Positions 11,034 to 64,000 of a DNA stretch of 64,000 bases are shown in pieces; position 1 is the first letter of the stretch, and every line of letters begins with the position of its first letter. The stretch lies in NCBI GenBank assembly GCA_022823365.1, contig JAJDXG010000045.1:30486-94485 (forward strand), read 5' to 3'. The DNA is from Gemmatimonadota bacterium. Lineage in GTDB: Bacteria; Gemmatimonadota; Gemmatimonadetes; Longimicrobiales; Gaopeijiaceae. The notes beneath the pieces were generated by a model. That model worked only from the letters and a program-made list of their open reading frames with translations. It had not been told where the DNA came from and made no database searches. The translations under genes were made by a program, and so were the position numbers.

Positions 11034-11042
11034 GGAGAGAGA

Positions 11043-12970: not shown

Positions 12971-12977
12971 GGCGTCC

Positions 12978-47194: not shown

Positions 47195-47336
47195 CGCCGT
47201 CATCCAGCTCCCTGCCGGGAGCCTTACGCGCGAGGCAGTCGTCTCGCGGACGGCCCGTGACCTGCGTACTCTTCAGGAAAGCCGGTCACGCCGCTGCCGT
47301 CCGGCAACTTCAGGGAATCCAGGGGAGGAACGACCG

Positions 47337-50550: not shown

Positions 50551-50593
50551 CCGGGTGTCTCCTTGGTTTCCAGGCGGCGATCCGCCCCGATGA

Positions 50594-51229: not shown

Positions 51230-51306
51230 GCGTCAGCTATCTCCTGAAGTTCCAGATCACTGGAGGGAATGCGGTTCGGCCAGCGAAACGACGACGGGCA
51301 TCGGGT

Positions 51307-53067
51307 CTAGTCCGCTACCGGCTGGGGTTCGAGCGCGGGCGCGGCGGTCTCGCGGGGCGGGGGCGCGTCCTGCAGCCAGTAGTCCTCTTCCACATCCGGC
51401 GCGGAGTACTCGTAGGGCCCGCGGTAGACGATGGGCACCAGCTCGAAGTTGCCGTGCGGCGGCGGCGACGGCACCGTCCACTCCAGGGAGTTGGCGTGCC
51501 ACGGGTTGTTGCCGGCCTTTTTCCCCTTCCAGATGCTGATGATGAAGTTGAGGGCGTAGATCGCCTGAACCGCCACCAGCGCGAACACGCACACCGTGAT
51601 GAACTGGTTGATGGGCTGCAGGGGCTGCAGGAACTCGTACTGAGTGGGGTCGTAGATGCGCCGCATGTGTCCCTGGATCCCGATCGAGTGCATGGGCCAG
51701 AACACCAGGTTGTAGAGGATCAGCGTCAGCCAGAAGTGGATCCTGCCCCATTTCTCGTTCATGAGGCGGCCGAACATCTTCGGATACCAGAACGTGATGC
51801 CCGCGAAGATCGCGAACAGGCTGCCGCCGAAGAGCACGTAGTGGATGTGCGCCACGATGAAGTAGGTGTCGTGGATGTAGACGTCGACCGGGGTCGAGGC
51901 CATGAACACGCCGGAGAGCCCGCCGATGATGAACATCGACACGAAGCCCAGGGCGTGCAGCATGGGGGTGTGCAGGTGGATGTTCCCCTTGTAGATGGTC
52001 CCCAGCCAGTTGAACACCTTGATGGCGGACGGCACCGCGATGACCATGGTCGTGATCATGAAGGTGGTGCCGAGCATCGGGTTCATGCCGCTCTGGAACA
52101 TGTGGTGACCCCACACGATCCATGACAGGAAGGCGATGGAGACGATCGCCAGCACCATGGCGTGGTAGCCGAAGACGGGCTTGCGCGCGCCGTTGGCCAG
52201 CACGTCCGAGGTGATGCCCATTGCGGGCAGGATGAGGATGTAGACCTCCGGGTGCCCGAAGAACCAGAACAGGTGCTGCCAGAGGAGCGGCTCGCCGTCG
52301 CTGGCCGGCAGGAAGAACCCGGTCCCGATGGTCTGGTCGAAGAGCAGCATGATCAGCGCGCCCGCCAGGATCGGGATCGCCAGCAGGATCAGGATCGCGG
52401 TGATGAAGAGTGCCCAGGTGGCCAGCGGCATCCGGAACCAGGTCATCCCGGGCGCGCGCATGTTGATGATGGTCGTGATGTAGTTGACCGCCCCCGCGAG
52501 CGATGCGAAGCCCAGGATGGTGAGGCTGATCAGCCAGAGCTGCTGCCCCAGGTAGACGCCGGTGTACTCACCGCTCGCGCTGAGCGGGGCGTACGACGTC
52601 CATCCGGCTCCGGCGGCGCCTCCCTCGACCGCGAAGCTCGCCAGCATCAGCAGTCCGGCGGGGAAGGCCATCCAGAACGACGCCATGTTGAGGCGCGGGA
52701 AGGCCATGTCGTCGGCGCCGATCTGGAGCGGGATCAGCAGGTTGCCGAAGACCCCCACCAGCAGCGGCATGATCGCGAAGAAGATCATGATGGTGCCGTG
52801 CATGGTGACCAGCGAGTTGTAGAACTCGGGCAGCATGATGGCGCCGGCGGGCGTGGGGGCCATCATCTCGTCCGGCAGGAGCATGCCACCGGGCATGGGC
52901 TCGCTCGGAAACCCCAGCTGCCACCGGATCATCGCTGCCAGCAATCCTCCCACGACCAGGAAGAACAGGCTCATCAGCAGGAACTGGATGGCGATGATCT
53001 TGTGGTCGGTCGAGAAGACGTAACGCCGAATCCACGGCATCTCGTGGGCGTGCCCGTGCGCGTCCAT
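51307..53067 (-). CDS. ctaD: cytochrome c oxidase subunit I (heme-copper oxidase, A-type)
   Basis: STDHKIIAIQF, WFFGHPEVYILILPAMG, VWGHHMF and FIVAHIHYVLFGG are canonical subunit I motifs. Confidence 0.95.
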   Translation of the reverse strand: MDAHGHAHEMPWIRRYVFSTDHKIIAIQFLLMSLFFLVVGGLLAAMIRWQLGFPSEPMPGGMLLPDEMMAPTPAGAIMLPEFYNSLVTMHGTIMIFFAIMPLLVGVFGNLLIPLQIGADDMAFPRLNMASFWMAFPAGLLMLASFAVEGGAAGAGWTSYAPLSASGEYTGVYLGQQLWLISLTILGFASLAGAVNYITTIINMRAPGMTWFRMPLATWALFITAILILLAIPILAGALIMLLFDQTIGTGFFLPASDGEPLLWQHLFWFFGHPEVYILILPAMGITSDVLANGARKPVFGYHAMVLAIVSIAFLSWIVWGHHMFQSGMNPMLGTTFMITTMVIAVPSAIKVFNWLGTIYKGNIHLHTPMLHALGFVSMFIIGGLSGVFMASTPVDVYIHDTYFIVAHIHYVLFGGSLFAIFAGITFWYPKMFGRLMNEKWGRIHFWLTLILYNLVFWPMHSIGIQGHMRRIYDPTQYEFLQPLQPINQFITVCVFALVAVQAIYALNFIISIWKGKKAGNNPWHANSLEWTVPSPPPHGNFELVPIVYRGPYEYSAPDVEEDYWLQDAPPPRETAAPALEPQPVAD

Positions 53068-53769
53068 CTACTGGTCCTCCTGATCGTCGGCGTCGTCAGC
53101 GTCGTCGGCGTCCGCGCTCTGGGAGGCGACCCACGCGTCGAATTCGGTCGCCTCGTATACGTTGAGGGTCCCCCCCATGGTCGTATGCAGATTACCGCAG
53201 AGTTCGGCGCAACCGATGGGATACGCGCCCGCGGCGGTCGCCTCGAACCAGACGGTGATGTCCATCCCCGGAACCGCGTCCTGCTTCACCCGCATCTCGG
53301 GCAGGAAGAACGAGTGCAGCACGTCCTCCGACCGGAGGGTGATGTTGACCGCCTGGTTCACCGGGACATGCATGATGTTGATGGTCGAGATGTCGTCGGC
53401 GGTGCCGGTGACCCCGTCCGCGCCCGCGTAGGTGATCTCCCACTCGAACTGCTTCGCGTTGACGATGTAGTCGAGGGCGTCGGCGGGCACGCTGTCCGGG
53501 TTCTTCATCATGTTCCACGAAGGGATGCTGATGAAAGCCAGGCCCAGCACGGCGATGAAGGGGACGGTGGTCCAGATGATCTCCGCCTTCGTCGACCCGT
53601 GGATGTAGGTGGCCTTCTGCCCGTCGCGCCGCCGGTAGCGGATGACGAAATAGACCAGGAGCGCCTCGGTGATCACGAAAACGATTCCCGTGACCACGAG
53701 GATCGCGTAGTACAGGAAGTCGACGTCCGGCCCAAAGGTCGAGTAACTGTCGGGGAGCATCCAGCTCAT
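53068..53769 (-). CDS. ctaC: cytochrome c oxidase subunit II (CuA, no fused cytochrome c)
   Basis: Two N-terminal TM helices, SEDVLHSFFLPE, and the CuA site CAELCGNLHTTM. Acidic tail ADADDADDADDQEDQ. AGGAGAA precedes the ATG at 53769. Confidence 0.9.
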   Translation of the reverse strand: MSWMLPDSYSTFGPDVDFLYYAILVVTGIVFVITEALLVYFVIRYRRRDGQKATYIHGSTKAEIIWTTVPFIAVLGLAFISIPSWNMMKNPDSVPADALDYIVNAKQFEWEITYAGADGVTGTADDISTINIMHVPVNQAVNITLRSEDVLHSFFLPEMRVKQDAVPGMDITVWFEATAAGAYPIGCAELCGNLHTTMGGTLNVYEATEFDAWVASQSADADDADDADDQEDQ

Positions 53770-53883
53770 GTTGGTGTTCTCCTGCTCGCTGCCGGGGGTG
53801 ATGCCGACCGGGCGGGGTACCCGGCCGCGTACCGGACCGGCGCCCCCGGGGGGAGGCGCCGGCCCGTCCTCGGCGCTTCGTGT

Positions 53884-54762
53884 CTAATGGGTCGCGGGAG
53901 CGAGAGCGTGGGCTCCGGGACCGTGCGGATCGATCGGCTCGCCCATCGGCACCACTGCGTTGGCCGCCATGGCTTCCGAGAAGGAGAAGCTCACCATCGC
54001 GGTCTCGCCGGTGGTGACGGTGACGCTTGCGGTCTGCGTGCCGTAGCGCTCGTGCCAGGCCTCGACCACGTAATCGCCGGGCGGGAGCATGCCCAGGTCG
54101 GCGCCTCCCGCCATGTCCGTGACCCCGTGGAAGGGGTGGTCCAGCACGCCCACGTAGGCGCTCATCCAGCCGTGCACGTCGCAGCGCACCGGGACCATCA
54201 CCTCCGCCAGCGGGAAGCTGCGGTTGGTGTCCATGTTCACCGGCTGGCTGATGTTGAAGCCGCGGTTTTCGCTGGGCGATGCGTTGATGTTGTGGGGCAG
54301 GCCGTCCGAGTTGCGGAAGGTGAGGTCCTGTCCCGCCTGCACGCCCACGACCCGGGGCACGTAGCGGCAGCCGACCTGGTCCATCACCACCGCGCCGCCC
54401 GGGGTGGGGAAGCTCATGCCCGCGTCGAGGCCTTCCCTGACGTAGACGAAGACGTTGGCCAGGCCGCCGCCGTCACCCACCACGACCTCCTCGGTCATCG
54501 GGGCATCGGTGTACCGGGCCGCGCAATTCGGCTCGGACGCCATGTCGATCGCATCCATTTCGGGCGCCATGCCCTCGAACATCACCATTGCGTTGATGCC
54601 GCCCGCGGTGGCCATGTCGACGGGAGAGGCCATCTCCTCGCCAGCGGCCTCTTCCTCCATGCCGCCGCCGGCCTCACCGCCACCGCCGCCGCCGCAGGCG
54701 ATCGCAAACACCGCAGCCGCCGCCATCACCATGGCCCGGCCGCATCCGAACAGGTCTCTCAT
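53884..54762 (-). CDS. cupredoxin (type-1 copper-like) lipoprotein with C-terminal CarboxypepD_reg-like domain
   Basis: Lipobox AIACGG after ATG 54762, which is preceded by GGAGGAAGG. Candidate T1Cu ligands are SDGLPHN and CDVHGWM (C-x2-H-x2-M). The C-terminal GDYVVEAWHERYG..VTV looks like an Ig-like domain. Confidence 0.65.
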   Translation of the reverse strand: MRDLFGCGRAMVMAAAAVFAIACGGGGGGEAGGGMEEEAAGEEMASPVDMATAGGINAMVMFEGMAPEMDAIDMASEPNCAARYTDAPMTEEVVVGDGGGLANVFVYVREGLDAGMSFPTPGGAVVMDQVGCRYVPRVVGVQAGQDLTFRNSDGLPHNINASPSENRGFNISQPVNMDTNRSFPLAEVMVPVRCDVHGWMSAYVGVLDHPFHGVTDMAGGADLGMLPPGDYVVEAWHERYGTQTASVTVTTGETAMVSFSFSEAMAANAVVPMGEPIDPHGPGAHALAPATH

Positions 54763-54797
54763 TCCTTCCTCCGTGGTGCTATTTGAAACATCGATGT

Positions 54798-56384
54798 CTA
54801 CGCGTCGCCCTCATCCGCGCCCTCGGCGCCTTCCCGCTCACGCCTCTGGGCCCGGGCTACCACCAGCACGCCCAGCCCGGCGGTGAGCAGCGTCGCGATG
54901 AGCGGCGCGACCACCACGGTGGCTGGCGTCGGTTCCTGCAGAAAAATGTAATGCCATGAGCTGATCGAGCCCCGGGTTCCTGTTTCTCCGTTGTCGCCGT
55001 CCCACGCCGCGAAACCGACGGGCACCGGCTCGCCGATGCGGAACTGCAGATCGCCCGGATCCTCGTTCTCAAGAACGCGGCGGAACATAACAGCCCAGCG
55101 CCCCGCCGAAAACGCCGCCTCCGACACGAGCGACTGGCTGGCGTCGCCCTGGGGGGCCATGGTGCCCAGCCCGCGGGCGTCCGCCTCCTGCGCGCCGTCC
55201 GCCGTGCTCTCCCAGTGCCACAGGTACACGGGCTCCAGCGGATCTCCCAGGAGGAAATAGGGCTTGTCCATCCCCTCCGGGATTTCCATCGGGAACTGGA
55301 GGTACAGGCCGTCGGGTCTGGGACCCGGCTCCATGTCGCCCTCGTCGGGTCCCACCGCCGCCAGGACCTGGGCCTGGAAGCCGGCCCAGGCGGTATCGGG
55401 GCTCTCGGAATGGTCGCTCCAGGACACGTGCACGGCGAGTTCGCCGCCATCGTGCAGGGCGCGCACCCACAGCCCAGCCACCTGCGGGACAAACCAGCGC
55501 GGGCTCTCGATGATCTGCCCGCCCATGGGGATATAAAACGCCTCCGCCGACTCCCAAAGCGGGTCGTCGACGCCCTCCGGAAGGGGCGCGTCCTCGACCA
55601 GGCCGGCCCGGATCACCTCGGTGATGCCCGGCGGGTCCTCGGGAGCGAAGCTGCGCACGTAGTGCGCGAGGTTCCACAACTGTTCGTCGGTGATGACCCC
55701 GGCGTCGATCAGGTCGGTGAACGACGGCATCGGCGTGCCGTCCAGACCGGTGCGCAGCCGCTGGTAGATGTCCTCGACCGTGCCGCCGCCGTTGAAATAC
55801 CAGTTCTCGGTCAGGTCCGCCGAGTAGGTGGGCATTCCCGAGTCGTCAACGAGCGTCGGAGAGGAGGTGCCGTCGCCCCTCCCGTCGATGCCGTGGCAGC
55901 GATTGCACTCGATGAGCTCGTATACCTCCCGCCCGTCGGCGAGCGCTTCTTCGGTGGCGCGCGTCGGGCTGCTGAAGGTCAGCGGCTCGGGGGCCTCGCC
56001 GGCGGCGAAGAACCGGGAGAAGCTCTTGAGGTAGTCGACGAGCGCCAGCCTCTCCTCGAGGCTGAGCTCTTCCTCCCATCCGGGCATGGTCGTGCCCGGC
56101 ATGCCTTCGTTGATGACGCGCATGATGTCGTCGTCGGTGGGAAGCTGCCCGCTCGCGGTGGTACGGATCTGATAGAGCGCCTGGGTGAAGTCGCGCGGGC
56201 GCGGCAGCATCCAGGTCGCCGCGTAGCCGTCGCCGAGGCCTTCGTAGCCGTGGCACGACGCGCACCAGCGGTCGTAGACGTCGCGCCCCAGCGCGTTCTC
56301 TTCCTGGGCGGCGAGAGGGGCCGACGCGGCGCACGTCACAGCCGCCGCAAGTACGAAACCGGGGATCATCGCTCGCGCCCGCAT
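54798..56384 (-). CDS. diheme cytochrome c fused to an EB_dh (ethylbenzene-dehydrogenase gamma / DOMON-like) heme-binding domain, C-terminal TM anchor
   Basis: Two CxxCH sites (CASCH, CNRCH). The EB_dh-like pattern follows: WVRALHDGGELAVHVSWSD, YLQFP, VYLWHW, AAFSAGRWAVMFRR and VGFAAWDGDNGE. The ATG overlaps the upstream stop (TGATG at 56382..56386). Confidence 0.75.
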   Translation of the reverse strand: MRARAMIPGFVLAAAVTCAASAPLAAQEENALGRDVYDRWCASCHGYEGLGDGYAATWMLPRPRDFTQALYQIRTTASGQLPTDDDIMRVINEGMPGTTMPGWEEELSLEERLALVDYLKSFSRFFAAGEAPEPLTFSSPTRATEEALADGREVYELIECNRCHGIDGRGDGTSSPTLVDDSGMPTYSADLTENWYFNGGGTVEDIYQRLRTGLDGTPMPSFTDLIDAGVITDEQLWNLAHYVRSFAPEDPPGITEVIRAGLVEDAPLPEGVDDPLWESAEAFYIPMGGQIIESPRWFVPQVAGLWVRALHDGGELAVHVSWSDHSESPDTAWAGFQAQVLAAVGPDEGDMEPGPRPDGLYLQFPMEIPEGMDKPYFLLGDPLEPVYLWHWESTADGAQEADARGLGTMAPQGDASQSLVSEAAFSAGRWAVMFRRVLENEDPGDLQFRIGEPVPVGFAAWDGDNGETGTRGSISSWHYIFLQEPTPATVVVAPLIATLLTAGLGVLVVARAQRREREGAEGADEGDA

Positions 56385-57187
56385 CAGTGCTCCTCCCCTT
56401 CGGCGCCCTCTTCCTCCCAGGTGCGCGGCTCCCAGCCGGTCTGTTCGTAGAGGTAGATGGTCACCTGCCAGATCTCTTCGGCGGTAAGCAGGTCCTCCCA
56501 GGCGGGCATCGCCGAGTCCCAGGGCGTGGCCTCGCGCGGAAGTCCGGGGCCGCCCTTGGCGATGCGCCAGAAGACGAAGCTCTCCGTGAGCTGTACGATG
56601 GTGCCCGGGTCCTGGAAGCTGAGGGGCGCGGGGTTGAAGGCGCTGGCAAAGTGCCCTTGCCCGTCCAGTGCGTCGCCGTGGCAGGGCATGCAGTTCTGGA
56701 CGTAGATCCTCTTGCCTTCTTCGTAATGTTCCTCAAGGTCACCCTCGTGCCGGAGCGGGTTCTCGAGGCCGTTGAGGACCATGGTCTCGCCGCGGAAGTC
56801 GATCTGGCCCGGGGGCGCGGGGTGCACCGAACGCAGCGCGGCCGGCGCCGAGACCGTGGGCCGCACCCGGTCGAAGGTCATGAAGGCGACCAGCAGGGGA
56901 ATGGTGACCATGAGCGCTGTCCGCAGAACCTTCTGGCGCGGATCGACCATGACCCGGTGGATGGGGGCCTTGAACTGCTTCCAGCGCTCCTCGGAGTCGC
57001 TGACCCAGATCAGCACGCCCACAACCACGGTCCCCATGTACTGCAGGACCACGGTGGCGGGCACCGGCGCGCTGGCGACCCCGAAGAGGGGCGGCAGGAG
57101 CCAGATGCCCCATTCGAAGAGGACGTACGCCAGCACCACGACGATCGCCGCCTGGCCCAGCGGATGCTTCCAGGGCTTGGTGTTCAT
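56384..57187 (-). CDS. membrane-anchored monoheme cytochrome c
   Basis: About three N-terminal TM helices, then one CxxCH (CMPCH) in a class I-like domain (YVQNCMPCHG ... MPAW). GGGAGGAG precedes the ATG at 57187. Confidence 0.75.
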   Translation of the reverse strand: MNTKPWKHPLGQAAIVVVLAYVLFEWGIWLLPPLFGVASAPVPATVVLQYMGTVVVGVLIWVSDSEERWKQFKAPIHRVMVDPRQKVLRTALMVTIPLLVAFMTFDRVRPTVSAPAALRSVHPAPPGQIDFRGETMVLNGLENPLRHEGDLEEHYEEGKRIYVQNCMPCHGDALDGQGHFASAFNPAPLSFQDPGTIVQLTESFVFWRIAKGGPGLPREATPWDSAMPAWEDLLTAEEIWQVTIYLYEQTGWEPRTWEEEGAEGEEH

Positions 57188-57214
57188 CGATTCTCCTCCC
57201 TCAAGGCGCGCCTC

Positions 57215-58015
57215 CTATCTCTGCGATGCGATGAACTGCACGATCGCCTCGAGTTCGGCCGCCGGGATGTTCCCGAAGATCGGGGGCATTATCCCGAGCA
57301 TCGCCTCGAACCCCTCGGCCGCCGACGCGGTCGGATCGAGGATGGACGTCCGGATTTCGTCGGCGGTCAGGCGACTGCCCATGCCCTCGTAGGACGGTCC
57401 CAGCGGCGATTGCCCGGTGACCGCGTGGCAGGTGGCGCAGGTGTGCCGGGTCAGAAGCTCTTCCGGGTCGAGGGGCCCGGTCGGACCCAGCACCGGGGCG
57501 GCGGGCGCGCTCGCCACCACCCCGCCCGCGGCTGCCGCTCCACCGTCGTCTGCGAAATCCGCCCCCGAAACCGTGACCTCCCCTCCCAGGGACTGCAGGT
57601 AGGCCACCAGCGCCCAGATCTGCACGGAGGAGAGGGTGCGGCTCGCGTCCAGCATGATGGGCGCGAACCCCTCCACCAGGTAGGCGTTGGGGTCCACCAT
57701 CGACGTATGCAGGTACTGCTTGCAGTCCTCGCCCGCGACGCGGTTCGCGCAGCGCTCGCCGATGAGCCCGGTCCCCGCGTGGTCGGTGAGCAGGTTCGGC
57801 GCGCGCTCGCCCAGGCCGTGGCAGGCCGTGCAACCGCCGCCGCCGTTGTACAGCTCCTCGCCCGCCGCGATGAGCTCCTCGGGGGTGACGTCGTCCGACA
57901 ACACCAGATCCTCGGGCACGTCCGACTGGATCTGCGGGATGGCGTTGGCGACCCAGGTGAACACGCCCAGGCAGCCGATCACAACGGCCAGGATACTCAG
58001 GTTGGTCTTTAGCAT
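57215..58015 (-). CDS. membrane-anchored diheme cytochrome c
   Basis: One N-terminal TM helix and two class I domains with CTACH and CATCH, each followed by a distal Met region (PIM, IMPP). GGGGAGG precedes the ATG at 58015. Confidence 0.8.
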   Translation of the reverse strand: MLKTNLSILAVVIGCLGVFTWVANAIPQIQSDVPEDLVLSDDVTPEELIAAGEELYNGGGGCTACHGLGERAPNLLTDHAGTGLIGERCANRVAGEDCKQYLHTSMVDPNAYLVEGFAPIMLDASRTLSSVQIWALVAYLQSLGGEVTVSGADFADDGGAAAAGGVVASAPAAPVLGPTGPLDPEELLTRHTCATCHAVTGQSPLGPSYEGMGSRLTADEIRTSILDPTASAAEGFEAMLGIMPPIFGNIPAAELEAIVQFIASQR

Positions 58016-58024
58016 CTGCCTCCC

Positions 58025-59815
58025 CTATCCCTCGCTGGGTGCCGGCTGAAGTTCGCTCTGGATCCCGCCCGCGGCCGACGCCCGGCCCGCCGACGAAATC
58101 ACGGGTTTCTCGGCCAGCGAGCCCAGCCAGAAGATGAAGGCCACCAGCCCGAAGAAGATGAGCACGCAGGCCGAGATGACCACCGACGAATAGCCCAGCG
58201 CCGGGGTGGCGGCCCAGGGGCTGGTGTCGCGAATGACCTCGAAGACGTGCCAGTGCTGGCGGATGCCGCTGCGCGCGAAGCCCATGAGGCCCATCAGCCA
58301 GGTGAAGGTCACCGCCAGGATGAAAAGCGCGTACTGCGAGCGCTGCGGCATGCGGCCCCACTGGATCTCGCCTCTCGAGGTGGCGCCGCGGAGCATCAGC
58401 AGGTCGATGGTGATCACCCCGATGATGCACGCGAGCACCGTGAGTACCTGGTAGACCGAAAAGCCGATGCGCACGAGCGTCGGCACCATGTAGCCGTAGA
58501 TCCCGTAGAACAGCACGATCGCCGAGGCCACCACGAAGATCGCGCCCTGCACGATCGTGCCGGTGCGCGCCCACGGCACCACCGGTTCCTTGTTGGCGCG
58601 CCGGTAGAGCAGGAACGACAGGAAGGTGGTCAGGATCATGAAGTTGACCGCCGTGTTCTTGCCGCTCATCAGCCCGAGGACGCTGAGGAAGGGGTGGTGC
58701 GTGCCGCCCATCGCCGCAAACTCCTCGCGGCTGGCGATCATGGTGTTGGGCGTCGCCCACACGATCACGCCCACGATGAGCACGGCGAGCATGTACTTCG
58801 TATAGGGCATGAAGCGCTCCGCCCCGGGTATTCGGCCCATCCCCACCCACAGGTAATAGTTGCCGGCGAGGAACAGTATCCCGATCAGGAAGGCCTGGAT
58901 GATCCACAGCCAGCTCATGAAGCCGCCCATCATGGTGATGCCCATCTGCTGGTTGAACTCGTAGATCTCGCGGCCCAGCCAGTAGCCCGCGAAGGGCAGA
59001 ACGATGAGCGCGCCGATGGCGATCATGTTGCCCACGTAGCCCATCCAGTCGTAGTGCGCCCGCTCCTCGTCGCTCTTTGCGGCCAGGAAGCGGTACGCCG
59101 CGTAGGCGCCGACCACCGCCCCGCCGAACACGACGTTGGCGATCAGCCGGTGGATGTTGATCGGCATCCAGGTCGCGTTGGTGAGCGCCGACCACAACTG
59201 CACCATCTGCGGAGCCGTGTCGACGGTGACGTCGGCCGGCGGGCTCATCATGTAGGTCAGCCAGCCGTTGGCGATGAACATGACGATCGTGCCCCACACG
59301 TTCAGGGCGATGCCCAGCCCCCAGTGGAACCACTTGGCGCGACCCTTCTTCCAGCGGTCCCAGCCGTAGTAGTACAGGTAGAGCGTGAAGGACTCGAAGA
59401 AGAAGAGCCCCACGTAGATCCACATCGACAGGTTGAAGATCTGCGCGAGATAGCTGAACAGGGTGGGGTAGATGGTGACCAGCAGGAAGAGCAGGATGCC
59501 GCCCCAGATGGCGGTCGCGGAGTACGCTACCAGCAGGAGCCGGGTGAACTCCTTGGACAGCTTGTCGTAGCGCTCGTCCCCACCGAACATGCCGATCGCC
59601 TCGGTGACCACCGCGAACATAGGTACGCCCAGCACGAAGGCGGCGAAGAGCAGGTGCACCTGGGCGGCGACCCACACCGCCGCCCGCCCGCCGATGACCG
59701 GGAAGTCGCCGTAGTCGCGCCCGGCGGGCACCTGGGCGAACGCGGGCTCCGCCATCACCAGGAGGACGAGCGCGCCCAGCAGAAGGATGGGTCCGGCGCC
59801 GGAGCGCCACGTCAT
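58025..59815 (-). CDS. cytochrome bd-like CydA homologue (CydA-only; no CydB nearby)
   Basis: ORF 58025..59950, with the start moved to ATG 59815 (MTWRSGAGPILLLGALVLLV). It aligns by eye to E. coli CydA: QVHLLFAAFVLGVP (His19 region), GLFFFESFTLYLYYYGWDRW (Glu107/GWDR region), FIANGWLTYMMSPP and NIHRLIANVVFGG (His186 region). A long additional polytopic C-terminal half follows. Confidence 0.8.
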   Translation of the reverse strand: MTWRSGAGPILLLGALVLLVMAEPAFAQVPAGRDYGDFPVIGGRAAVWVAAQVHLLFAAFVLGVPMFAVVTEAIGMFGGDERYDKLSKEFTRLLLVAYSATAIWGGILLFLLVTIYPTLFSYLAQIFNLSMWIYVGLFFFESFTLYLYYYGWDRWKKGRAKWFHWGLGIALNVWGTIVMFIANGWLTYMMSPPADVTVDTAPQMVQLWSALTNATWMPINIHRLIANVVFGGAVVGAYAAYRFLAAKSDEERAHYDWMGYVGNMIAIGALIVLPFAGYWLGREIYEFNQQMGITMMGGFMSWLWIIQAFLIGILFLAGNYYLWVGMGRIPGAERFMPYTKYMLAVLIVGVIVWATPNTMIASREEFAAMGGTHHPFLSVLGLMSGKNTAVNFMILTTFLSFLLYRRANKEPVVPWARTGTIVQGAIFVVASAIVLFYGIYGYMVPTLVRIGFSVYQVLTVLACIIGVITIDLLMLRGATSRGEIQWGRMPQRSQYALFILAVTFTWLMGLMGFARSGIRQHWHVFEVIRDTSPWAATPALGYSSVVISACVLIFFGLVAFIFWLGSLAEKPVISSAGRASAAGGIQSELQPAPSEG

Positions 59816-59849
59816 ACCAGGTTTCGGCACGTTTCTCTCCGAGGTGATT

Positions 59850-61298
59850 TCAACTCCGGGGAGCATCGTTCTCCTCCGGAATATCGTCGCGCGACGCGGC
59901 CGCGGACATCTGTTTGCGTAGGAAGAAAGGCAGTCGCCTGGAGAAATCAACCGGCATGCCGCGGCGCACCTCCGCCATCACGTCGGCGGTCACATTCGTG
60001 TACCCGCGCTTGCGCGCGTACGACTCGACGCGCTCGGACACCACGCCGCGCACGAAACTGGGCACCACGGACAGGCGCGCGCGCGCCTCTTCGGTCCAGG
60101 GGAGCCCGGGGGCGGTGTCGTCGCCGTACACAACCGCTCGCCGCGGCTCGATGACCGCCCGGTCGCCGACCGGATCGTAGGCGCAGGAGTCGTCGGGACC
60201 GAGCAGGTCGCCGGTCAGCGCGTGGGCGCGCGCGCGGCAGCCCCCGCACACCGAACGGTACTCGCAGCGCCCGCACCGACCGCCCAGCTCCCCGCCGCGC
60301 AGCCGGGCGAAGACGGGGGACGACTCCCACACCTGGCGGAAGGGGGTGGTGGTGAGGTCGCCGGCGACCACCGGCGTGTAGGGACAGGGGGTCACCTTCC
60401 CTTCGGGGGTGATGCGGCAGTAGTGCACGCCGCACGGGCAGCGGGTGCCGTAGTTGAGCAGCGGCGATTCCTCCCCACCCTCGATCACGTGGCGCATGAT
60501 CTGCGGCTGGCACTTGGAACGCACCATCATGCGGCCCCGGTACTTGCGCTCGAGCTCCACCAGCTCGGCCAGCACCTCCTCGTTCTCTTCCGGAGAGAGG
60601 CCCTGCATGCGTTCCCCGCGCCCCGTCGGAACCAGGAAGTACAGGTTGAACGAGACCGCGCCCCGGCTCTCCGCCCAGGCGGCGATCCCGGCGACTTCCG
60701 CCCGGTTGCCCCGGGTTACGCTGGTCTGGACGATGAAGTCCAGACGGTGGGCGGCGAGCCGGTCCACCGCGGCCAGGGTGTCGGAGAGCGCCCCCGACCC
60801 GTGGCGGAAGCGGTCGTGGTAGGTGTCGACCAGCGAGTCCACGCTGACCGCGACCCCCTTCACCCCCGCCTCCATGAGCGACTCGATGCGGCGGTCGGTG
60901 AGGCGGGTGCCGTTGGTGCCCACCACCACGGTGGCCCCGCCGGCGCTCGCCCGGGCGGCGATCTCTTCCAGGTCGTCGCGCAGGAGGGGCTCCCCACCCG
61001 AGAGAATGAGCACCGGGTTCGGGTTGACCTCCAGAACCTGGTCGAGCACGCGATGACATTCCGCGGTGGACAGCTCCGTTTCGGCCAGGTGCCAAGCTCC
61101 CGCGGAGATGTAGCAGTGCGCGCACTCCAGGTTGCAGCGCCGGGTGAGATTCCACGCGACGATGTGCGGGAGACCCGGAGCCGCCCCCGAATCCGCCGAT
61201 ACGCCTTCCGCGACCCAGCGCAGGGAGGGAGTGGTGGAGGATTCGGAGAAGCCGTTCCGCCCGACCGTGGGCAGAACGGGAGCGCGCGGACGGGCCAT
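59850..61298 (-). CDS. radical SAM/SPASM-type enzyme (AhbD/NirJ-like) with C-terminal PCP_red-like domain
   Basis: ORF 59850..61712, with the start moved to ATG 61298, overlapping the upstream stop (TGATG). Radical SAM cluster site RRCNLECAHCY, GGEPLL, and auxiliary Cys clusters CPCGVHYC..CPY and CGRCEYRSVCGGCRA. The C-terminal LPWTEEARARLSVVPSFVRGVVSERVESYARKRGYTNVT resembles standalone PCP-reductase-family domains. Confidence 0.85.
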   Translation of the reverse strand: MARPRAPVLPTVGRNGFSESSTTPSLRWVAEGVSADSGAAPGLPHIVAWNLTRRCNLECAHCYISAGAWHLAETELSTAECHRVLDQVLEVNPNPVLILSGGEPLLRDDLEEIAARASAGGATVVVGTNGTRLTDRRIESLMEAGVKGVAVSVDSLVDTYHDRFRHGSGALSDTLAAVDRLAAHRLDFIVQTSVTRGNRAEVAGIAAWAESRGAVSFNLYFLVPTGRGERMQGLSPEENEEVLAELVELERKYRGRMMVRSKCQPQIMRHVIEGGEESPLLNYGTRCPCGVHYCRITPEGKVTPCPYTPVVAGDLTTTPFRQVWESSPVFARLRGGELGGRCGRCEYRSVCGGCRARAHALTGDLLGPDDSCAYDPVGDRAVIEPRRAVVYGDDTAPGLPWTEEARARLSVVPSFVRGVVSERVESYARKRGYTNVTADVMAEVRRGMPVDFSRRLPFFLRKQMSAAASRDDIPEENDAPRS

Positions 61299-63418
61299 CA
61301 AGCCTCGTCCCGCCGCATGAACTGCTCGACGGCCGCCTTGGCGTCGGCGGGACTCACGGTCTTGAAGTCGACGGGGCAGTCGTCGGCCTGCTCGACCACG
61401 TCCCGGATCGGGCAGCGGGTCACGCCGGACGCTTTGGCTTCCTCGATGAACTTGCGCATCTCCGGGGTCAGCCCGTCGACACCCTCGGCGGCGGCCTTCA
61501 GCTGCTTGGTCTGCAGCTCCCGGAACATGACCAGCATGGTGTCGGTGTCGAAGGTGTCCGCCTCCATCATGGCCTGCTTGTTCTCGTCCATGACCCGCGT
61601 GGTGATGCGCCAGAAGTCGTGGTCGCGGGCGAAGCGCTCCACGGTGTTGCGGGCCAGGGGGCGGGCGATGAGGGGCACCGCGCCCAGCCGGTCGAAGGCC
61701 TCCTCGGTCCATACCACCGGGTCGGCGGCCGTGCGCGTTCGCTCATGCACGTGCCCGGTGTAGGGGCACGTCACCTCGATGGTCGGGTTGGCGGGCGCCG
61801 CATCGGCGTCGCTGCCCTCCACCACCGTGCGCTTCATGGCTTCCGCCGCCTTCACCTCGGCCAGGGCGAGCTCCTCGGCCGTGCCGATCCCCATGATGAG
61901 CTGCATGTGGGTGGGCAGCAGCTTTGCGATCGCCTCGTCCAGCCACTTGCTGGTCACCATCGGCAGGGTGGCGCCGGTGTCGCGGCCCGGCTCCAGCACC
62001 GGCGGCTCGGCTCCGTTGGATCCGTTGGCCCGCGCGCCCCGGGCACCGTTCGCCCCGGCCCCGTTGGCACCGGCGGATCCGTTGGCCGCGGGCCGGGACG
62101 CATCTTCACCCGGGCGCCAGTTCTCCAGCACGTACTCCTCCACCGCCTTGCGGGCGATGCCGAGCGCGAAGGGCGGGACGCGCAGGATGCGGACCTCCGC
62201 CTCCGGCGCCCACTCGAGCCCCATCTCGCCGTCTTCCTCGATCCAGGGAATCTCCTCGGGACGAACGTCGGTGGTGCCGATGAGGAGGATGTTCGCGTTC
62301 GACTGCCTGAGCAGGTTGTGCGCCTGGGACCCCAGATCCGTGCCCTCGATGCGGTGCGCCCCGTGGCGCGCGAGGATCAGCAGGCTGGGATCGACCTCCT
62401 CGGCCCACTGCAGGATGACCTGGAAGGGCTTGCCGATGAGCACCTGGGTCTCGACTTCGACCTCCGGGTACTCCTCGGCCATGATGCGCGCCCGCTTCAC
62501 GTTCGCCTGGGCGAGCTTGAGCAGGCCCTTGTCGATGATGTTGTTGTGAAGCTCCTCCTGCTCCTCGAACTTGAAGATCTTCGAGGCCTGCACCGAGAGG
62601 ACGTCCTTGATGTTGCCGAAGACCGCGTGATGGTATTCGACATCGAACGACGAGCCCACGTAGAGCTTCGCCCCGTACTCCGACGCCATCTCCAGGGCGA
62701 GGCGCATGGCCTTGTAGCTGTATGCGGAGCCGTCCACGCACACCATGAAGCTGCCCCCGGCGAGCGGGCGCTCGTTGCGCACCACGAAGGCGTCCTTCTC
62801 CACCTTCTGCAGCACGCGCGCCACCACCCCGCCGAGCTGCGAGTAGGGCTGATAGCCGATCCCGTGCGCCCCGATCACCATCAGGTCGTAGGCGCGGCCG
62901 CTCGATCCCGCCAGCTTCTCGTCGTGCTCCTCGTCCTCTGCGACGATCCGACCGTCATCGCCGAGGCGCACGTCGCTGCGCACCTTGTCGCCCCCGTCGT
63001 AGCTCGAGGCGATGTTGGGGTCGAAGCCGATGAGGCTCGGCAGGTGACCCTCCCCTGAATTCACCTCGCTCACCAGCTCCTCGTAGTTGATGCCCTCGAG
63101 AAGCTGGCGCGTGAGCGGCACGCCGGCGTCCCGGCACCGCCGGTCCACCTGGTCCAGGAAGGAGTCCGAGATGAGCTGCAGCCCCTTCTCGATCAGCTTG
63201 TCGTGGATCTTGCGCTGGCGCTTGATCTCCTTCTCGGTCTGGAACTGGGCGGGAAGGCCGGTCTCCAGCTGGCGGAAGCGGATGTCGTGCAGGCGTGCGG
63301 CGTAGACGTGGTTTCCGGTGATCCGGCCCTCGGAACGGTTCGCGAGTTCGATGGCGCGATCCACCGCCCAGTCCGACCAGGGCGAGTTGTCCACCGGCAC
63401 GAAGATCTCACGGTACAT
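61298..63418 (-). CDS. tandem universal stress protein (USP) domains fused to two PCP_red-like domains and a Cys-containing C-terminal region
   Basis: USP-like starts MYREIFVPVDNSPWSDWAVDRAIELA and FMVCVDGSAYSYKAMRLALEMA, with ends DLMVIGAHG and LLILARHGAH..GSQAHNLLR. PCP_red-like segments LEWAPEAEVRILRVPPFALGIARKAVEEYV and VVWTEEAFDRLGAVPLIARPLARNTVERFA. Confidence 0.8.
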   Translation of the reverse strand: MYREIFVPVDNSPWSDWAVDRAIELANRSEGRITGNHVYAARLHDIRFRQLETGLPAQFQTEKEIKRQRKIHDKLIEKGLQLISDSFLDQVDRRCRDAGVPLTRQLLEGINYEELVSEVNSGEGHLPSLIGFDPNIASSYDGGDKVRSDVRLGDDGRIVAEDEEHDEKLAGSSGRAYDLMVIGAHGIGYQPYSQLGGVVARVLQKVEKDAFVVRNERPLAGGSFMVCVDGSAYSYKAMRLALEMASEYGAKLYVGSSFDVEYHHAVFGNIKDVLSVQASKIFKFEEQEELHNNIIDKGLLKLAQANVKRARIMAEEYPEVEVETQVLIGKPFQVILQWAEEVDPSLLILARHGAHRIEGTDLGSQAHNLLRQSNANILLIGTTDVRPEEIPWIEEDGEMGLEWAPEAEVRILRVPPFALGIARKAVEEYVLENWRPGEDASRPAANGSAGANGAGANGARGARANGSNGAEPPVLEPGRDTGATLPMVTSKWLDEAIAKLLPTHMQLIMGIGTAEELALAEVKAAEAMKRTVVEGSDADAAPANPTIEVTCPYTGHVHERTRTAADPVVWTEEAFDRLGAVPLIARPLARNTVERFARDHDFWRITTRVMDENKQAMMEADTFDTDTMLVMFRELQTKQLKAAAEGVDGLTPEMRKFIEEAKASGVTRCPIRDVVEQADDCPVDFKTVSPADAKAAVEQFMRRDEA

Positions 63419-63607
63419 GGCTGTCTCGATTCAGGGTTATCGAGGGACGAGGCGCTTGTGGTTCAGCCATGCGACGCTGGAGCGGCGGGTGCAGGGAGGC
63501 CCATCCGAGGGGGCCCTGCGGGCTGGAAGCGGTCCACTTGGTTGGGCAAGTCAGGCAGGGCCAAGTCCCCGAAGGCGGTCGCCGAAATGGTCGGCGTACA
63601 TAACATA

Positions 63608-63627
63608 AGCGGGCACCCGGGCCCGCT
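63608..63627 (-). terminator. candidate intrinsic terminator for the gene ending at 63770
   Basis: On the minus strand, AGCGGGC-ccgggt-GCCCGCT is followed by TATGTTATGT. It lies about 140 nt downstream of the stop at 63770 and about 190 nt upstream of the USP gene start. Confidence 0.35.
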
Positions 63628-63769
63628 CATCTGATCTCGTGTGTCGGCCCCCGCGGAGCCGGGCAAATTATACCGGAAATCGCTTGTCGATGTCAAACAC
63701 TGCGGAGGGGTCCGGCGGTGGCGCGCGAAGGGGAGGAATCCACTCCGGTGAGTTCGCCCCTCTGCCGCG

Positions 63770-64000
63770 TCAGAGATCCCATCCGGCGCGGGCCAGCATC
63801 CACAGGTTGATGACGATGACGACGATGGCGGTGAGGTAGAATGCTTCGGGAAGCGCGGCGTCGGGTCCGGGCATGAACGCTCCCTCGATCATGCTCGGGA
63901 GCCGCAGGGCGTGCAGCGCCCAGATCCCCCGGGCCAGCCACACGCTGCGCCGGAACCAGAGCCCCCAGAAGACGAGCGCCACGATCGCGGCGCCGAGCAG
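63770..64000 (-). CDS. hypothetical membrane protein, partial (N-terminus beyond window edge)
   Basis: The minus-strand frame is open to the window edge and hydrophobic (LLGAAIVALVFWGLWF ... YLTAIVVIVINLWML). No family recognised. Confidence 0.35.
   Translation of the reverse strand: MLGAAIVALVFWGLWFRRSVWLARGIWALHALRLPSMIEGAFMPGPDAALPEAFYLTAIVVIVINLWMLARAGWDL

What the first reader, a model, noticed from the sequence alone, without database searches (positions are those of the whole stretch)
59850..63418. USP-USP-PCP_red-PCP_red protein and a radical SAM/SPASM-PCP_red enzyme lead the respiratory operon: three copies of a rare domain in two coupled genes
The first two genes of the minus-strand cluster overlap by 1 nt (TGATG at 61296..61300). 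Both carry segments resembling the small PCP-reductase (ChlB/BchB C-terminal) family domain:
- LEWAPEAEVRILRVPPFALGIARKAVEEYV (USP protein)
- VVWTEEAFDRLGAVPLIARPLARNTVERFA (USP protein)
- LPWTEEARARLSVVPSFVRGVVSERVESYA (radical SAM protein)

The radical SAM protein has CNLECAHCY plus SPASM-like auxiliary cysteine clusters, as in AhbD/NirJ-type tetrapyrrole-modifying enzymes. It lies immediately upstream of a heme protein of the bd family.

My inference is that the pair may mature or modify a tetrapyrrole cofactor for the downstream CydA-like or EB_dh proteins, with the USP domains adding nucleotide or stress sensing. I am not aware of a described function for this architecture.
Basis: partly seen in the sequence, partly recalled or inferred. 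Interest (0 to 1): 0.7.

Follow-up and report, generated by a model that had tools for sequence, protein, structure and literature searches.

The report
Haem-enzyme pair tied to bd-like oxidase
Two overlapping genes encode an AhbD-like radical-SAM haem enzyme and a stress-protein-like partner that share a small domain otherwise known from chlorophyll synthesis, and this uncharacterised pair recurs next to an uncharacterised bd-like respiratory complex in several bacterial phyla, probably supplying its haem.

Summary
Gene 61298..63418(-) encodes Usp-Usp-PCP_red-PCP_red. Gene 59850..61298(-) encodes Radical_SAM-SPASM-PCP_red. All domains score above Pfam cut-offs, and the TGATG overlap is present.

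The radical SAM protein sits beside AhbD/NirJ2 haem synthases. It has CX3CX2C and the exact eight-cysteine AhbD SPASM spacing, but scores 271 bits against a cut-off of 500. It is therefore a distinct sister family.

The architecture is not rare. Thousands of homologues exist in Gemmatimonadota, Nitrospinota, anammox Brocadiales and Binatia.

The Usp-PCP_red plus rSAM-PCP_red pair is the conserved unit. A ferredoxin, an Mrp-like ATPase and a zinc-ribbon-PCP_red protein often accompany it. The window cuts these off.

In several divergent lineages the pair lies inside operons of the OR-N2 type (CydA-like, cytochromes c, EbdC-like haem b subunit). In one lineage hemY follows it. Plain AhbD-like genes without PCP_red show none of these links and sit next to hemB.

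Best reading: an oxygen-independent, AhbD-type haem-forming module serving the OR-N2 complex. A housekeeping haem synthase and a novel haem derivative remain possible. I class it as a new variant of a known kind, with moderate to high interest.

The parts
61298..63418 (-). Gene for the 706-aa Usp-Usp-PCP_red-PCP_red protein (cytoplasmic; no TM segment)
   Evidence: ORF. Pfam Usp x2 and PCP_red x2. No TM. Homologues are 71-97% identical across Gemmatimonadota. 32-42% identical homologues are paired with the rSAM gene in Nitrospinota, Binatia and unnamed lineages.
62774..63418 (-). USP domain 1 (about residues 1-215). Contains a G-x2-G-x9-G-G near-ATP motif and the conserved RFRQLE.GLP...QR..HD.LI..GL..ISDS segment
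   Evidence: Pfam reports 2 Usp stretches. Alignments A5 and A7. AF2 strands and helices.
62279..62746 (-). USP domain 2 (residues 225-380). Contains A-x2-G-x9-G-S and the segment FD..(Y/F)H..F..I..VLS..A...F.F.EQE.LH..IID.GL, in which about 20 positions are invariant across the seven phylum-diverse sequences
   Evidence: Best Pfam stretch is 225-380. Invariant columns D259, H263, F267, F282, F284, E286, Q287, E288, L290, H291, I295, D296, G298 across phyla. Residues 264-291 have low pLDDT in the model.
62084..62224 (-). PCP_red copy 1 of the USP protein (about residues 399-445; LEWAPEAEVRILRVPPFALGIARKAVEEYV)
   Evidence: Second Pfam PCP_red stretch. Conserved in all cross-phylum homologues directly after USP domain 2.
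61577..61711 (-). PCP_red copy 2 of the USP protein (residues 570-614; VVWTEEAFDRLGAVPLIARPLARNTVERFA), the 'RP' subtype
   Evidence: Best Pfam PCP_red stretch 570-614. NCBIfam DPOR_BchB C-terminal positions 452-511. Most similar to the second PCP_red of the long Brocadia and Nitrospinota rSAM proteins.
61296..61300 (-). TGATG stop/start overlap coupling the two genes
   Evidence: Read directly from the sequence.
59850..61298 (-). Gene for the 482-aa AhbD-like radical SAM/SPASM/PCP_red protein
   Evidence: AF2 model has mean pLDDT 81.8. Foldseek top hits are PqqE, SkfB, SuiB and anSME.
60738..61151 (-). Radical SAM core (residues 50-187) with CX3CX2C at C55, C59 and C62
   Evidence: Pfam. Invariant cysteines.
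60183..60512 (-). Full SPASM region. C263-x23-C287-x17-C305-x36-C342-x2-C345-x5-C351-x2-C354-x17-C372 gives two auxiliary 4Fe-4S sites with AhbD spacing
   Evidence: Invariant columns. The motif CX20-33CX17CX36-37CX2CX5CX2CX17-35C is quoted from PMC10452713 and PMC10114771.
59964..60098 (-). C-terminal PCP_red domain of the rSAM protein (residues 401-445), a three-helix unit
   Evidence: Pfam 5.4e-16. Helices 403-410, 414-430 and 438-447, mostly with block-mean pLDDT of about 85-96.
63667..63696 (-). Perfect sigma-70-type promoter (TTGACA-18-TATAAT) about 250 nt upstream of the USP start codon
   Evidence: 12 of 12 matches, with 0.2 weaker matches expected. Invariant in L003-L006. Not found in more distant relatives.
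63770..64000 (-). 3' end of the upstream 150-aa membrane-protein gene. It is the last gene of the ferredoxin / Mrp-like ATPase / Zn-ribbon-PCP_red / membrane-protein block, which the window end cuts off
   Evidence: Translation matches the L003 7146..7598 product. Block composition.
58025..59866 (-). CydA-like membrane protein (OR-N2 type), tightly following or overlapping the rSAM gene
   Evidence: Pfam Cyt_bd_oxida_I 1.5e-22, N-terminal half only. At least 11 hydrophobic segments. OR-N2 operon description in the Murali et al. supplement. The 17-nt overlap is inferred from the gene call in L003.
54798..58015 (-). Three cytochrome c genes. The last is a dihaem c + EB_dh (EbdC-like haem b) fusion
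   Evidence: Pfam. NCBIfam DMSO_red_II_gam. CxxCH counts of 2, 1 and 2.
50284..54762 (-). 292-aa CarboxypepD_reg/cupredoxin-like protein followed by COX2, COX1, COX3 and COX4. This is the end of the conserved cluster

Best explanation
The two genes encode the core of a cytoplasmic haem-maturation module.

The radical SAM protein belongs to a sister family of the AhbD/NirJ2 haem synthases. It most likely uses SAM-derived radical chemistry and two auxiliary 4Fe-4S clusters. [quoted passage not shown]

Its partner is the tandem-USP protein. In relatives a zinc-ribbon protein also carries the small three-helix PCP_red domain that the rSAM enzyme bears at its own C-terminus. I infer that PCP_red domains act as docking or tetrapyrrole hand-off units that hold these proteins together.

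I also infer that the neighbouring ferredoxin supplies electrons and the Mrp-like ATPase supplies Fe-S clusters.

The module is inherited together with, and probably serves, the OR-N2 bd-like respiratory complex (CydA-like protein, cytochromes c, EbdC-like haem b subunit). The analogy is ctaA/ctaB in cox operons or nirJ in nir operons.

Shown here: domain content, AhbD-type cysteine signature, pair conservation and the gene neighbourhoods.
Inferred: substrate, product, the role of PCP_red, the role of USP and the client complex.
For: Family placement:
- AhbD (271.5 bits) and NirJ2 (269.7 bits) are by far the best NCBIfam models. PqqE scores 112 and MftC 140.
- The nearest relatives without PCP_red score as AhbD/NirJ2.
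- The protein has CX3CX2C plus the exact eight-cysteine AhbD SPASM spacing.
- The predicted fold is SPASM radical SAM.

Pair conservation:
- USP_PCP sits directly upstream of rSAM_PCP in Gemmatimonadota, Nitrospinota and Binatia.
- The same holds in L088, L090, L091 and L093.
- 32 of 63 metagenome loci carrying a PCP_red-type rSAM also carry USP_PCP.

Helpers:
- Mrp and/or the Zn-ribbon-PCP_red protein occur in 33 of 63 metagenome loci, often directly adjacent (Mrp-sPCP-rSAM in L139-L157).
- Fd-Mrp-sPCP is present in nearly all Gemmatimonadota loci.

Client link:
- 13 of 17 PCP-type loci of at least 14 kb carry CydA-like, EB_dh, CPDreg or COX1. None of 15 plain AhbD-like loci does.
- L103 has the single-direction gene run CydA-like / cyt c / cyt c-EB_dh / CPDreg / USP-PCP_red x5 / rSAM / HemY.
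- The OR-N2 operon type is described in the Murali et al. supplement without mention of these genes.

Haem pathway link:
- HemY-family genes scoring above the TIGR00562 cut-off lie next to the rSAM gene.
- hemE-hemY-hemL lies upstream in L017.
- Haem biosynthesis genes occur in 9 of 50 and HmuY-like genes in 21 of 50 full Gemmatimonadota loci.
- Reviews state that an AhbD-like enzyme is expected for the anaerobic coproporphyrin-dependent pathway.
Against: - The protein fails the AhbD and NirJ2 trusted cut-offs (271 vs 500 bits), so the same chemistry is not assured.
- No ferrochelatase, ChdC or ahbABC gene was seen near it, and whole genomes could not be inspected.
- The linkage to OR-N2 genes is absent in Brocadia, Nitrospinota, L093 and 7 of 28 long metagenome loci.
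- The function of PCP_red is unknown even in BchB. The Pchlide-contacting helix described in PMC12022308 is residues 398-420. By my own comparison with the NCBIfam DPOR_BchB model positions matched (about 452-511 of 512), that helix appears to lie upstream of the PCP_red segment.
- The USP model has low confidence (mean pLDDT 63.7).
- No experiment exists for any member in the papers searched.
Confidence: 0.45

Rival explanations
1. Housekeeping haem synthase. The rSAM-PCP_red enzyme is simply the cell's general oxygen-independent coproheme decarboxylase, i.e. the terminal step of a coproporphyrin-dependent pathway with HemY acting as CgoX. Its position next to respiratory genes would reflect only co-regulation of haem supply with haem-rich complexes.
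For: - AhbD signature.
- hemY adjacency.
- hemE-hemY-hemL and hemA-hemB next to the cluster.
- The gene stands alone in strictly anaerobic Brocadia, and in Nitrospinota it is accompanied only by the USP-PCP_red gene, with no respiratory genes nearby.
- It is present in essentially all Gemmatimonadota sampled and is as conserved as COX1.
- Reviews predict such an enzyme.
Against: - General haem enzymes are not expected inside one client's operon in five or more divergent lineages with differing gene order.
- Plain AhbD-like genes sit with hemB instead, and none shows the respiratory, USP or Mrp partners.
- None of 63 PCP-type metagenome loci has hemA, hemB, hemE or hemL nearby.
Confidence: 0.25
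2. Novel haem derivative. The enzyme, possibly together with the HemY-like oxidase, produces a non-standard iron tetrapyrrole that is the specific cofactor of the CydA-like or EbdC-like subunit. Examples would be a partly decarboxylated or otherwise side-chain-modified haem. The analogy is NirJ for haem d1.
For: - It is a distinct family well below the AhbD and NirJ2 cut-offs.
- It is embedded in OR-N2 operons across lineages.
- The OR-N family has not been characterised biochemically. I therefore take its cofactors to be unknown.
- Family relatives AhbC and NirJ carry out different side-chain chemistry on related substrates.
Against: - The cysteine spacing is that of AhbD (CX2CX5CX2CX17C), not the NirJ/AhbC form (CX2CX5CX20-21C).
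- The gene occurs without nearby OR-N2 genes in several taxa.
- There is no chemical evidence.
Confidence: 0.15
3. Protein or peptide maturase. As in many SPASM enzymes, it would install a cross-link or other modification on a subunit of the respiratory complex or on a small peptide.
For: - The SPASM fold's closest solved structures are the peptide maturases PqqE, SkfB and SuiB.
- Small unannotated ORFs lie nearby in L091 and L093.
Against: - Peptide-maturase HMMs score far lower (112-140 bits) than AhbD/NirJ2 (270 bits).
- No conserved small ORF accompanies the pair.
- No RiPP recognition element was detected.
- hemY and other haem-gene neighbours point to a tetrapyrrole.
- No AhbD or NirJ structure appeared in the PDB sequence or fold searches, so the structural ranking is biased.
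Confidence: 0.06
4. Haem chaperone rather than synthase. Like HemW, the rSAM-PCP_red/USP-PCP_red proteins would bind finished haem b and insert it into membrane or exported b-type sites without catalysing side-chain chemistry.
For: - The neighbours are b-haem proteins: CydA-like, EB_dh, and cytochrome b in L093.
- HemW sets a precedent for a radical-SAM-fold haem chaperone.
Against: All catalytic and cluster cysteines and the GGEP-type SAM motif region are invariant across phyla, which suggests retained radical chemistry.
Confidence: 0.06

Closest known systems
AhbD (radical SAM haem b synthase, TIGR04545) and its NirJ2 orthologue group (TIGR04055)
   Same: - Best-scoring models.
- CX3CX2C motif and the full eight-cysteine SPASM motif with identical spacing, including CX2CX5CX2CX17C.
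- About 330-residue core of the same length.
- Predicted SPASM fold.
   Different: - Scores 271 bits against trusted cut-offs of 500.
- Carries 1-4 C-terminal PCP_red domains that characterised AhbDs lack.
- Paired with a USP-PCP_red protein and often with Mrp and Zn-ribbon-PCP_red.
- No ahbA, ahbB or ahbC nearby.
- Neighbours are OR-N2 respiratory genes or hemY rather than hemB.
C-terminal domain of DPOR subunit BchB/ChlB (Pfam PCP_red, PF08369)
   Same: All three window segments, and the fourth in relatives, pass the Pfam gathering score. They align to the last ~60 positions of the BchB models.
   Different: - There is no nitrogenase-like Oxidored_nitro body. BchB equivalog scores are 31-34 bits against cut-offs of 490-509.
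- The hosts are mostly non-phototrophs.
- The domain is repeated up to 5 times.
OR-N2 cytochrome bd-like operons (Murali, Gennis & Hemp 2021 classification)
   Same: The downstream genes fit the published description: a long CydA homologue lacking the quinol site region, several cytochromes c and an EbdC homologue.
   Different: The description read here does not mention radical SAM, USP, PCP_red, Mrp or hemY genes. In Gemmatimonadota the operon is also fused to an A-family haem-copper oxidase gene set.
Cofactor genes embedded in client operons (ctaA/ctaB with cox genes; nirJ and others with nirS) and the haem chaperone HemW
   Same: A tetrapyrrole-handling radical SAM or haem-modifying gene is co-inherited with the respiratory enzyme that uses the product. 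This is a 'works like' comparison. The basis is established knowledge.
   Different: There is no sequence relationship to CtaA, CtaB or HemW. The product and client here are inferred, not shown.

Membership tests
AhbD haem b synthase (TIGR04545) | N-terminal radical SAM motif CX3CX2C | tested here: met
   C55, C59 and C62 in CNLECAHCY, invariant in alignments A1 and A4.
AhbD haem b synthase (TIGR04545) | Full SPASM motif CX20-33CX17CX36-37CX2CX5CX2CX17-35C (methanogen and sulfate-reducer type) | tested here: met
   Spacings are 23, 17, 36, 2, 5, 2 and 17 for C263 to C372. The motif is taken from PMC10452713.
AhbD haem b synthase (TIGR04545) | Score at or above the curated equivalog cut-off (500 bits) | tested here: not met
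   271.5 bits over model positions 1-339.
AhbD haem b synthase (TIGR04545) | Operates in the siroheme-dependent pathway with AhbA, AhbB and AhbC | tested here: inconclusive
   No ahbABC-like genes were annotated in the Pfam-annotated loci (within 10 kb), and none appeared among the neighbours scanned elsewhere. ahbABC genes were never used as search queries, and whole genomes could not be searched.
AhbD haem b synthase (TIGR04545) | Converts coproheme to protoheme | not testable with these tools
   Requires an enzyme assay.
NirJ2 (TIGR04055) | Score at or above the cut-off (500 bits) | tested here: not met
   269.7 bits.
NirJ/AhbC type | C-terminal motif CX2CX5CX20-21C and model scores above cut-off | tested here: not met
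   The protein has the extra CX2C and 17-residue spacing. NirJ scores 179.5 vs 515 and AhbC 147.7 vs 650.
SPASM peptide maturases (PqqE, MftC and others) | Family model above cut-off and an adjacent precursor peptide | tested here: not met
   PqqE scores 111.8 vs 381 and MftC 139.5 vs 265. No conserved small ORF is present.
Universal stress protein (PF00582) | Usp domain above the gathering score | tested here: met
   99.4 bits vs 24, two stretches.
Universal stress protein (UspFG ATP-binding type) | G-2x-G-9x-G(S/T) nucleotide motif | tested here: inconclusive
   Domain 1 has G183-x2-G186-x9-G196-G. Domain 2 has A350-x2-G353-x9-G363-S364. Binding was not tested.
PCP_red (PF08369) | Domain above the gathering score (32.5 bits) | tested here: met
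   47.3 bits (USP protein, 2 stretches) and 58.8 bits (rSAM protein).
DPOR subunit BchB/ChlB | Nitrogenase-like body and equivalog score | tested here: not met
   Only the last ~60 model positions match, with 30.8-33.6 bits vs cut-offs of 490-509.
OR-N2 bd-like operon | CydA homologue with multiple cytochromes c and an EbdC homologue in one operon | tested here: met
   Pfam, CxxCH counts and the description.
OR-N2 bd-like operon | 14 transmembrane helices in CydA | tested here: inconclusive
   A crude hydropathy scan finds 11 segments at a strict threshold.

The most novel reading that the evidence does not exclude
The module would be the biosynthetic machinery for a so far unknown haem derivative that forms the active-site cofactor of OR-N2 bd-like oxidases. 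PCP_red would act as a general tetrapyrrole hand-off and docking domain. The Mrp-like ATPase would work as a BchL/NifH-style ATP-driven reductase that docks through PCP_red domains to inject low-potential electrons into the radical SAM enzyme.
Probability: 0.12. Interest if true: 0.85.

Novelty: new variant of a known kind. Interest (0 to 1): 0.6.

Why it matters
Three open points become testable.

1. Reviews state that an AhbD-like enzyme 'might' carry out the oxygen-independent last step of the coproporphyrin-dependent haem pathway. This widespread family, with hemY beside it in one lineage, is a concrete candidate.

2. The OR-N2 bd-like complexes of Gemmatimonadota and other phyla (the OR-N family also occurs in Nitrospinota and Planctomycetota) have not been characterised biochemically. 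A dedicated haem enzyme in their operons is a handle on what cofactor they use and how they are assembled.

3. The PCP_red domain has no known role outside DPOR. Here it appears in three or four co-encoded proteins and in up to five tandem copies. That pattern suggests a modular docking or tetrapyrrole-handling function that interaction assays could probe.

Tried and rejected
- Genome scan with the 25-sequence alignment A1 failed for lack of a conserved stretch. It was repeated with A2.
[quoted passage not shown] BLASTP shows similarity only within the PCP_red units themselves. I keep only the weak point that the 'RP' subtype sits on different proteins in different phyla.
- Three invariant Cys-Pro motifs (C551, C669, C681) in the USP protein looked like haem-regulatory motifs. 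That whole region is missing from the Nitrospinota, L093 and other homologues, so it is not a defining feature.
- The perfect promoter and 250-nt leader are conserved only in four close relatives. Rfam finds nothing in the window. I did not pursue this as a riboswitch.
- Neither the PDB sequence search nor the fold search returned an AhbD or NirJ structure, so the active sites could not be compared.
- The USP protein model is too weak outside the USP and PCP_red units for fold searching.
- The NJ tree of representatives is crude. PCP_red-bearing sequences group together, but five 'no PCP' tips sit among them. These may be truncated or may carry undetected domains.
- The rest of the window holds no haem biosynthesis gene.
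- Two key papers were not held: Dailey 2017 and Pfanzagl 2018.
- Literature searches for PF08369 or PCP_red, and for AhbD in these phyla, found no description of this architecture.

Full report
**1. What is in the sequence**

On the minus strand, ORF 61298..63418 encodes a 706-aa protein and ORF 59850..61298 a 482-aa protein. The stop TGA (61300..61298) and the start ATG (61298..61296) share one base.

Pfam results for the first protein:
- Usp: E 3.3e-28, 99.4 bits vs cut-off 24, two stretches.
- PCP_red: E 2.2e-12, 47.3 bits vs 32.5, two stretches.

Pfam results for the second protein:
- Radical_SAM: 8e-24.
- SPASM: 1.2e-7.
- PCP_red: 5.4e-16, 58.8 bits vs 32.5.

Neither protein has a hydrophobic segment, so both are cytoplasmic.

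**2. The radical SAM protein**

Family scores:
- NCBIfam ranks AhbD (TIGR04545, 271.5 bits) and NirJ2 (TIGR04055, 269.7 bits) first. Both are far below their 500-bit cut-offs.
- Peptide maturases score 80-140 bits.

Cysteine signature:
- Alignments spanning Gemmatimonadota, Nitrospinota, Brocadiales and Binatia keep C55, C59 and C62 (CX3CX2C) invariant.
- Eight further cysteines are also invariant: C263, C287, C305, C342, C345, C351, C354 and C372.
- Their spacing (23, 17, 36, 2, 5, 2, 17) is exactly the full AhbD SPASM motif CX20-33CX17CX36-37CX2CX5CX2CX17-35C reported for methanogen and sulfate-reducer AhbD (PMC10452713).
- It includes the AhbD-specific CX2CX5CX2CX17C. NirJ and AhbC instead have CX2CX5CX20-21C (PMC10114771).

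Structure:
- The AlphaFold model has mean pLDDT 81.8. It shows a partial TIM-barrel core, a SPASM region and a confident three-helix PCP_red unit joined by a linker of about 40 residues.
- Its closest solved folds are PqqE, SkfB, SuiB and anSME.
- No AhbD or NirJ structure is available for comparison.

Relatives:
- In the exhaustive 50%-identity library, almost every near-full-length hit above about 280 bits carries one to four C-terminal PCP_red copies by my HMM.
- Below about 260 bits, plain proteins of about 340 aa take over. These score as AhbD/NirJ2.
- A crude NJ tree groups the PCP_red-bearing sequences next to them.

The protein is therefore a distinct sister family of AhbD/NirJ2, defined by the PCP_red extension. 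I do not file it as an AhbD equivalog.

**3. Distribution**

- The rSAM query finds more than 7000 homologues. The best 120 all share the three-domain architecture at 66-92% identity. They carry Gemmatimonadota or Longimicrobiales names, and JGI labels them 'AdoMet-dependent heme synthase'.
- The USP protein is equally conserved (71-97% identity).
- A profile of distant members retrieves proteins of 560-700 aa with two to four PCP_red domains. These come from Brocadiales (one is named 'nirJ 3'), Nitrospinota and Binatia.

The architecture is common, not rare. The window itself is most likely from a Longimicrobiales bacterium (94% identity to L004).

**4. Neighbourhood in Gemmatimonadota**

In 80 species-level genome loci the gene order is almost invariant (Pfam):
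ferredoxin / Mrp-NBP35-like ATPase / zinc-ribbon-PCP_red protein / (150-aa membrane protein) / USP-PCP_red / rSAM-PCP_red / CydA-like / cyt c / cyt c / dihaem c-EB_dh / CarboxypepD_reg-like / COX2 / COX1 / COX3 / COX4.

Points specific to the window:
- The window stops inside the 150-aa membrane-protein gene (63770..64000).
- A perfect TTGACA-18-TATAAT promoter at 63696..63667(-) lies in the 350-nt gap before the USP gene. It is invariant in four close relatives. The USP gene probably does start a transcript.

Haem genes abut the cluster in some lineages:
- hemA-hemB in L003-L006.
- hemE-hemY-hemL directly upstream of the ferredoxin gene in L017, all above NCBIfam cut-offs.
- In total, 9 of 50 full-length loci carry haem biosynthesis genes and 21 of 50 carry a HmuY-like gene.

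**5. Neighbourhood in other lineages**

Individual loci:

| Locus | Lineage | Gene order |
|---|---|---|
| L085 | Nitrospinota | USP-PCP_red + rSAM, no respiratory genes nearby |
| L084 | Brocadia | rSAM alone |
| L086 | Binatia | cyt c-EB_dh / CPDreg / cyt c / USP / rSAM |
| L087 | unnamed | cyt c-EB_dh / PCP_red protein / rSAM |
| L091 | unnamed | cupredoxin / SCO1 / CydA-like / cyt c / USP / rSAM |
| L093 | unnamed | USP / rSAM, with a cytochrome b nearby |
| L088-L090 | unnamed | (USP) / rSAM / HemY; L088 HemY scores 245.9 bits on TIGR00562 vs cut-off 97.85 |

A metagenome scan gave 63 loci with PCP_red-type rSAM genes and 15 with plain AhbD-like genes.

Among PCP-type loci of at least 14 kb (n = 17):
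- 13 carry CydA-like, EB_dh, CPDreg or COX1.
- 12 carry USP-PCP_red.
- 7 carry Mrp or Zn-ribbon-PCP_red.
- 7 carry HemY.

Among the plain loci:
- None of the 15 has any of these partners.
- 8 of 15 sit next to hemA or hemB.

The clearest case is L103. It has a single-direction gene run: CydA-like / cyt c / cyt c-EB_dh / CPDreg / USP-USP-PCP_red x5 / rSAM-PCP_red / HemY, followed by a PAS kinase and a sigma-54 regulator. In another lineage Mrp / Zn-ribbon-PCP_red / rSAM are directly adjacent (L139-L157).

The downstream complex matches the 'OR-N2' operon type of Murali et al.: a bd-like CydA with several cytochromes c and an EbdC homologue, and no known electron donor. Their text and supplement do not mention the rSAM, USP or PCP_red genes.

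**6. The USP partner**

Across phyla the common core is Usp-Usp-PCP_red (394 aa in Nitrospinota and L093). It has strikingly conserved polar segments inside both USP domains, for example D259, H263, E286-Q287-E288, H291 and D296. These lie in a region the model leaves unstructured.

The Gemmatimonadota-specific C-terminal half adds a low-complexity linker, the second PCP_red and three invariant Cys-Pro motifs. Other phyla lack it.

The ATP-binding motifs are only near-consensus. Sensing of nucleotides or stress is therefore an untested guess.

**7. Interpretation**

Shown:
- An AhbD-signature radical SAM enzyme.
- A partner protein that shares its accessory domain and is co-encoded across phyla.
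- Frequent co-encoding with an Fe-S carrier-type ATPase, a ferredoxin and a further PCP_red protein.
- Recurrent embedding in OR-N2 respiratory operons, with hemY in one lineage.

Inferred:
- The enzyme performs AhbD-type, oxygen-independent side-chain decarboxylation of an iron tetrapyrrole, most simply coproheme to haem b.
- PCP_red domains mediate docking or tetrapyrrole hand-off among the co-encoded proteins.
- The ferredoxin supplies electrons and Mrp supplies clusters.
- The product is destined for the b-haem sites of the CydA-like and EbdC-like subunits.

The main rival is a purely housekeeping haem synthase. hemY and other haem-gene neighbours, and the stand-alone genes in Brocadia and Nitrospinota, favour it. 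The repeated operon embedding, in contrast to plain AhbD genes, argues against it.

A novel haem derivative, a protein or peptide maturase and a HemW-like chaperone are less likely but not excluded.

**8. Novelty and verdict**

I found no paper describing this architecture or PF08369 outside DPOR. Reviews only state that an AhbD-like enzyme may serve the anaerobic coproporphyrin-dependent pathway.

The chemistry class is known. New here are the PCP_red extension, the USP-PCP_red, Zn-ribbon-PCP_red and Mrp partners, and the tie to OR-N2 operons. I class it as a new variant of a known kind.

- Interest is 0.6.

Noticed in passing
window 63419..63696 (minus strand); L003-L006 upstream of the USP gene: A perfect sigma-70 consensus promoter is followed by a ~250-nt leader with invariant blocks (e.g. 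GGGACTTGGCCCTGCC.GACTTGCC.AACCAAGTGGAC) and several GC-rich hairpin-like stretches. L003 lacks a ~70-nt segment of the leader. The leader is conserved only among the closest relatives, and there is no Rfam match.
   Followed up: partly
window 50284..59866 (minus strand) and 80 Gemmatimonadota loci: An OR-N2-type bd-like gene set (CydA-like, three cytochrome c proteins with five CxxCH in total, an EbdC-like haem b domain) is fused into one co-oriented cluster with a CarboxypepD_reg/cupredoxin-like protein and a complete A-family haem-copper oxidase (COX2-1-3-4). The order is near-invariant across the phylum. It may be an uncharacterised respiratory supercomplex.
   Followed up: partly
window 53884..54762 (minus strand): A 292-aa exported protein with a CarboxypepD_reg-like domain, a weak plastocyanin-type match and a C-x2-H-x2-M motif (RCDVHGWM). 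It is conserved between the EB_dh and COX2 genes in Gemmatimonadota and is also found next to USP/rSAM in Binatia and metagenome lineages.
   Followed up: partly
L003 5483..7598 and equivalents (upstream block cut off by the window end): An Mrp/NBP35-like ATPase (best NCBIfam hit MrpORP, 201 bits vs cut-off 450; CxxC motif) is translationally coupled to a zinc-ribbon + PCP_red protein. This resembles a BchL/BchB-like pairing of a P-loop Fe-S ATPase with a PCP_red protein. In one metagenome lineage these two genes directly precede the rSAM gene.
   Followed up: partly
L001-L009 and 21 of 50 full Gemmatimonadota loci, just upstream of the ferredoxin gene: A HmuY-like (haem-binding lipoprotein family) gene recurs beside the cluster.
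   Followed up: no
L065 (MAG labelled Acidobacteriota) 9950..13956; L007 (MAG labelled Gammaproteobacteria): L065 has a 66%-identical rSAM-PCP_red gene with none of the usual partners. A 200-aa ORF and an Nramp-Usp fusion transporter follow it. L007 is a 4.5-kb contig with typical Gemmatimonadota gene order. Either could reflect horizontal transfer or mis-binning.
   Followed up: partly
window 16987..20367, 29780..31501, 32896..34785, 47127..49091 (and amidases at 641..2182, 9234..11033): The window holds an unusual number of Amidohydro_3-family paralogues, plus two amidases and an asparaginase.
   Followed up: no
window 6066..8991: A PpoB2-type copper chaperone gene lies next to a FeoB ferrous iron transporter gene. 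These are metal-supply genes in the same window as the haem- and copper-rich respiratory cluster.
   Followed up: no
L103 5672..7978: A USP-USP protein with five tandem PCP_red domains (173 bits, 5 stretches). This is the highest copy number seen.
   Followed up: no
P0383 (663 aa, representative library): A single protein with two N-terminal PCP_red units followed by the radical SAM core. It may be a natural fusion of the partner's C-terminal half with the enzyme, or a gene-calling artefact across the 1-nt overlap.
   Followed up: no
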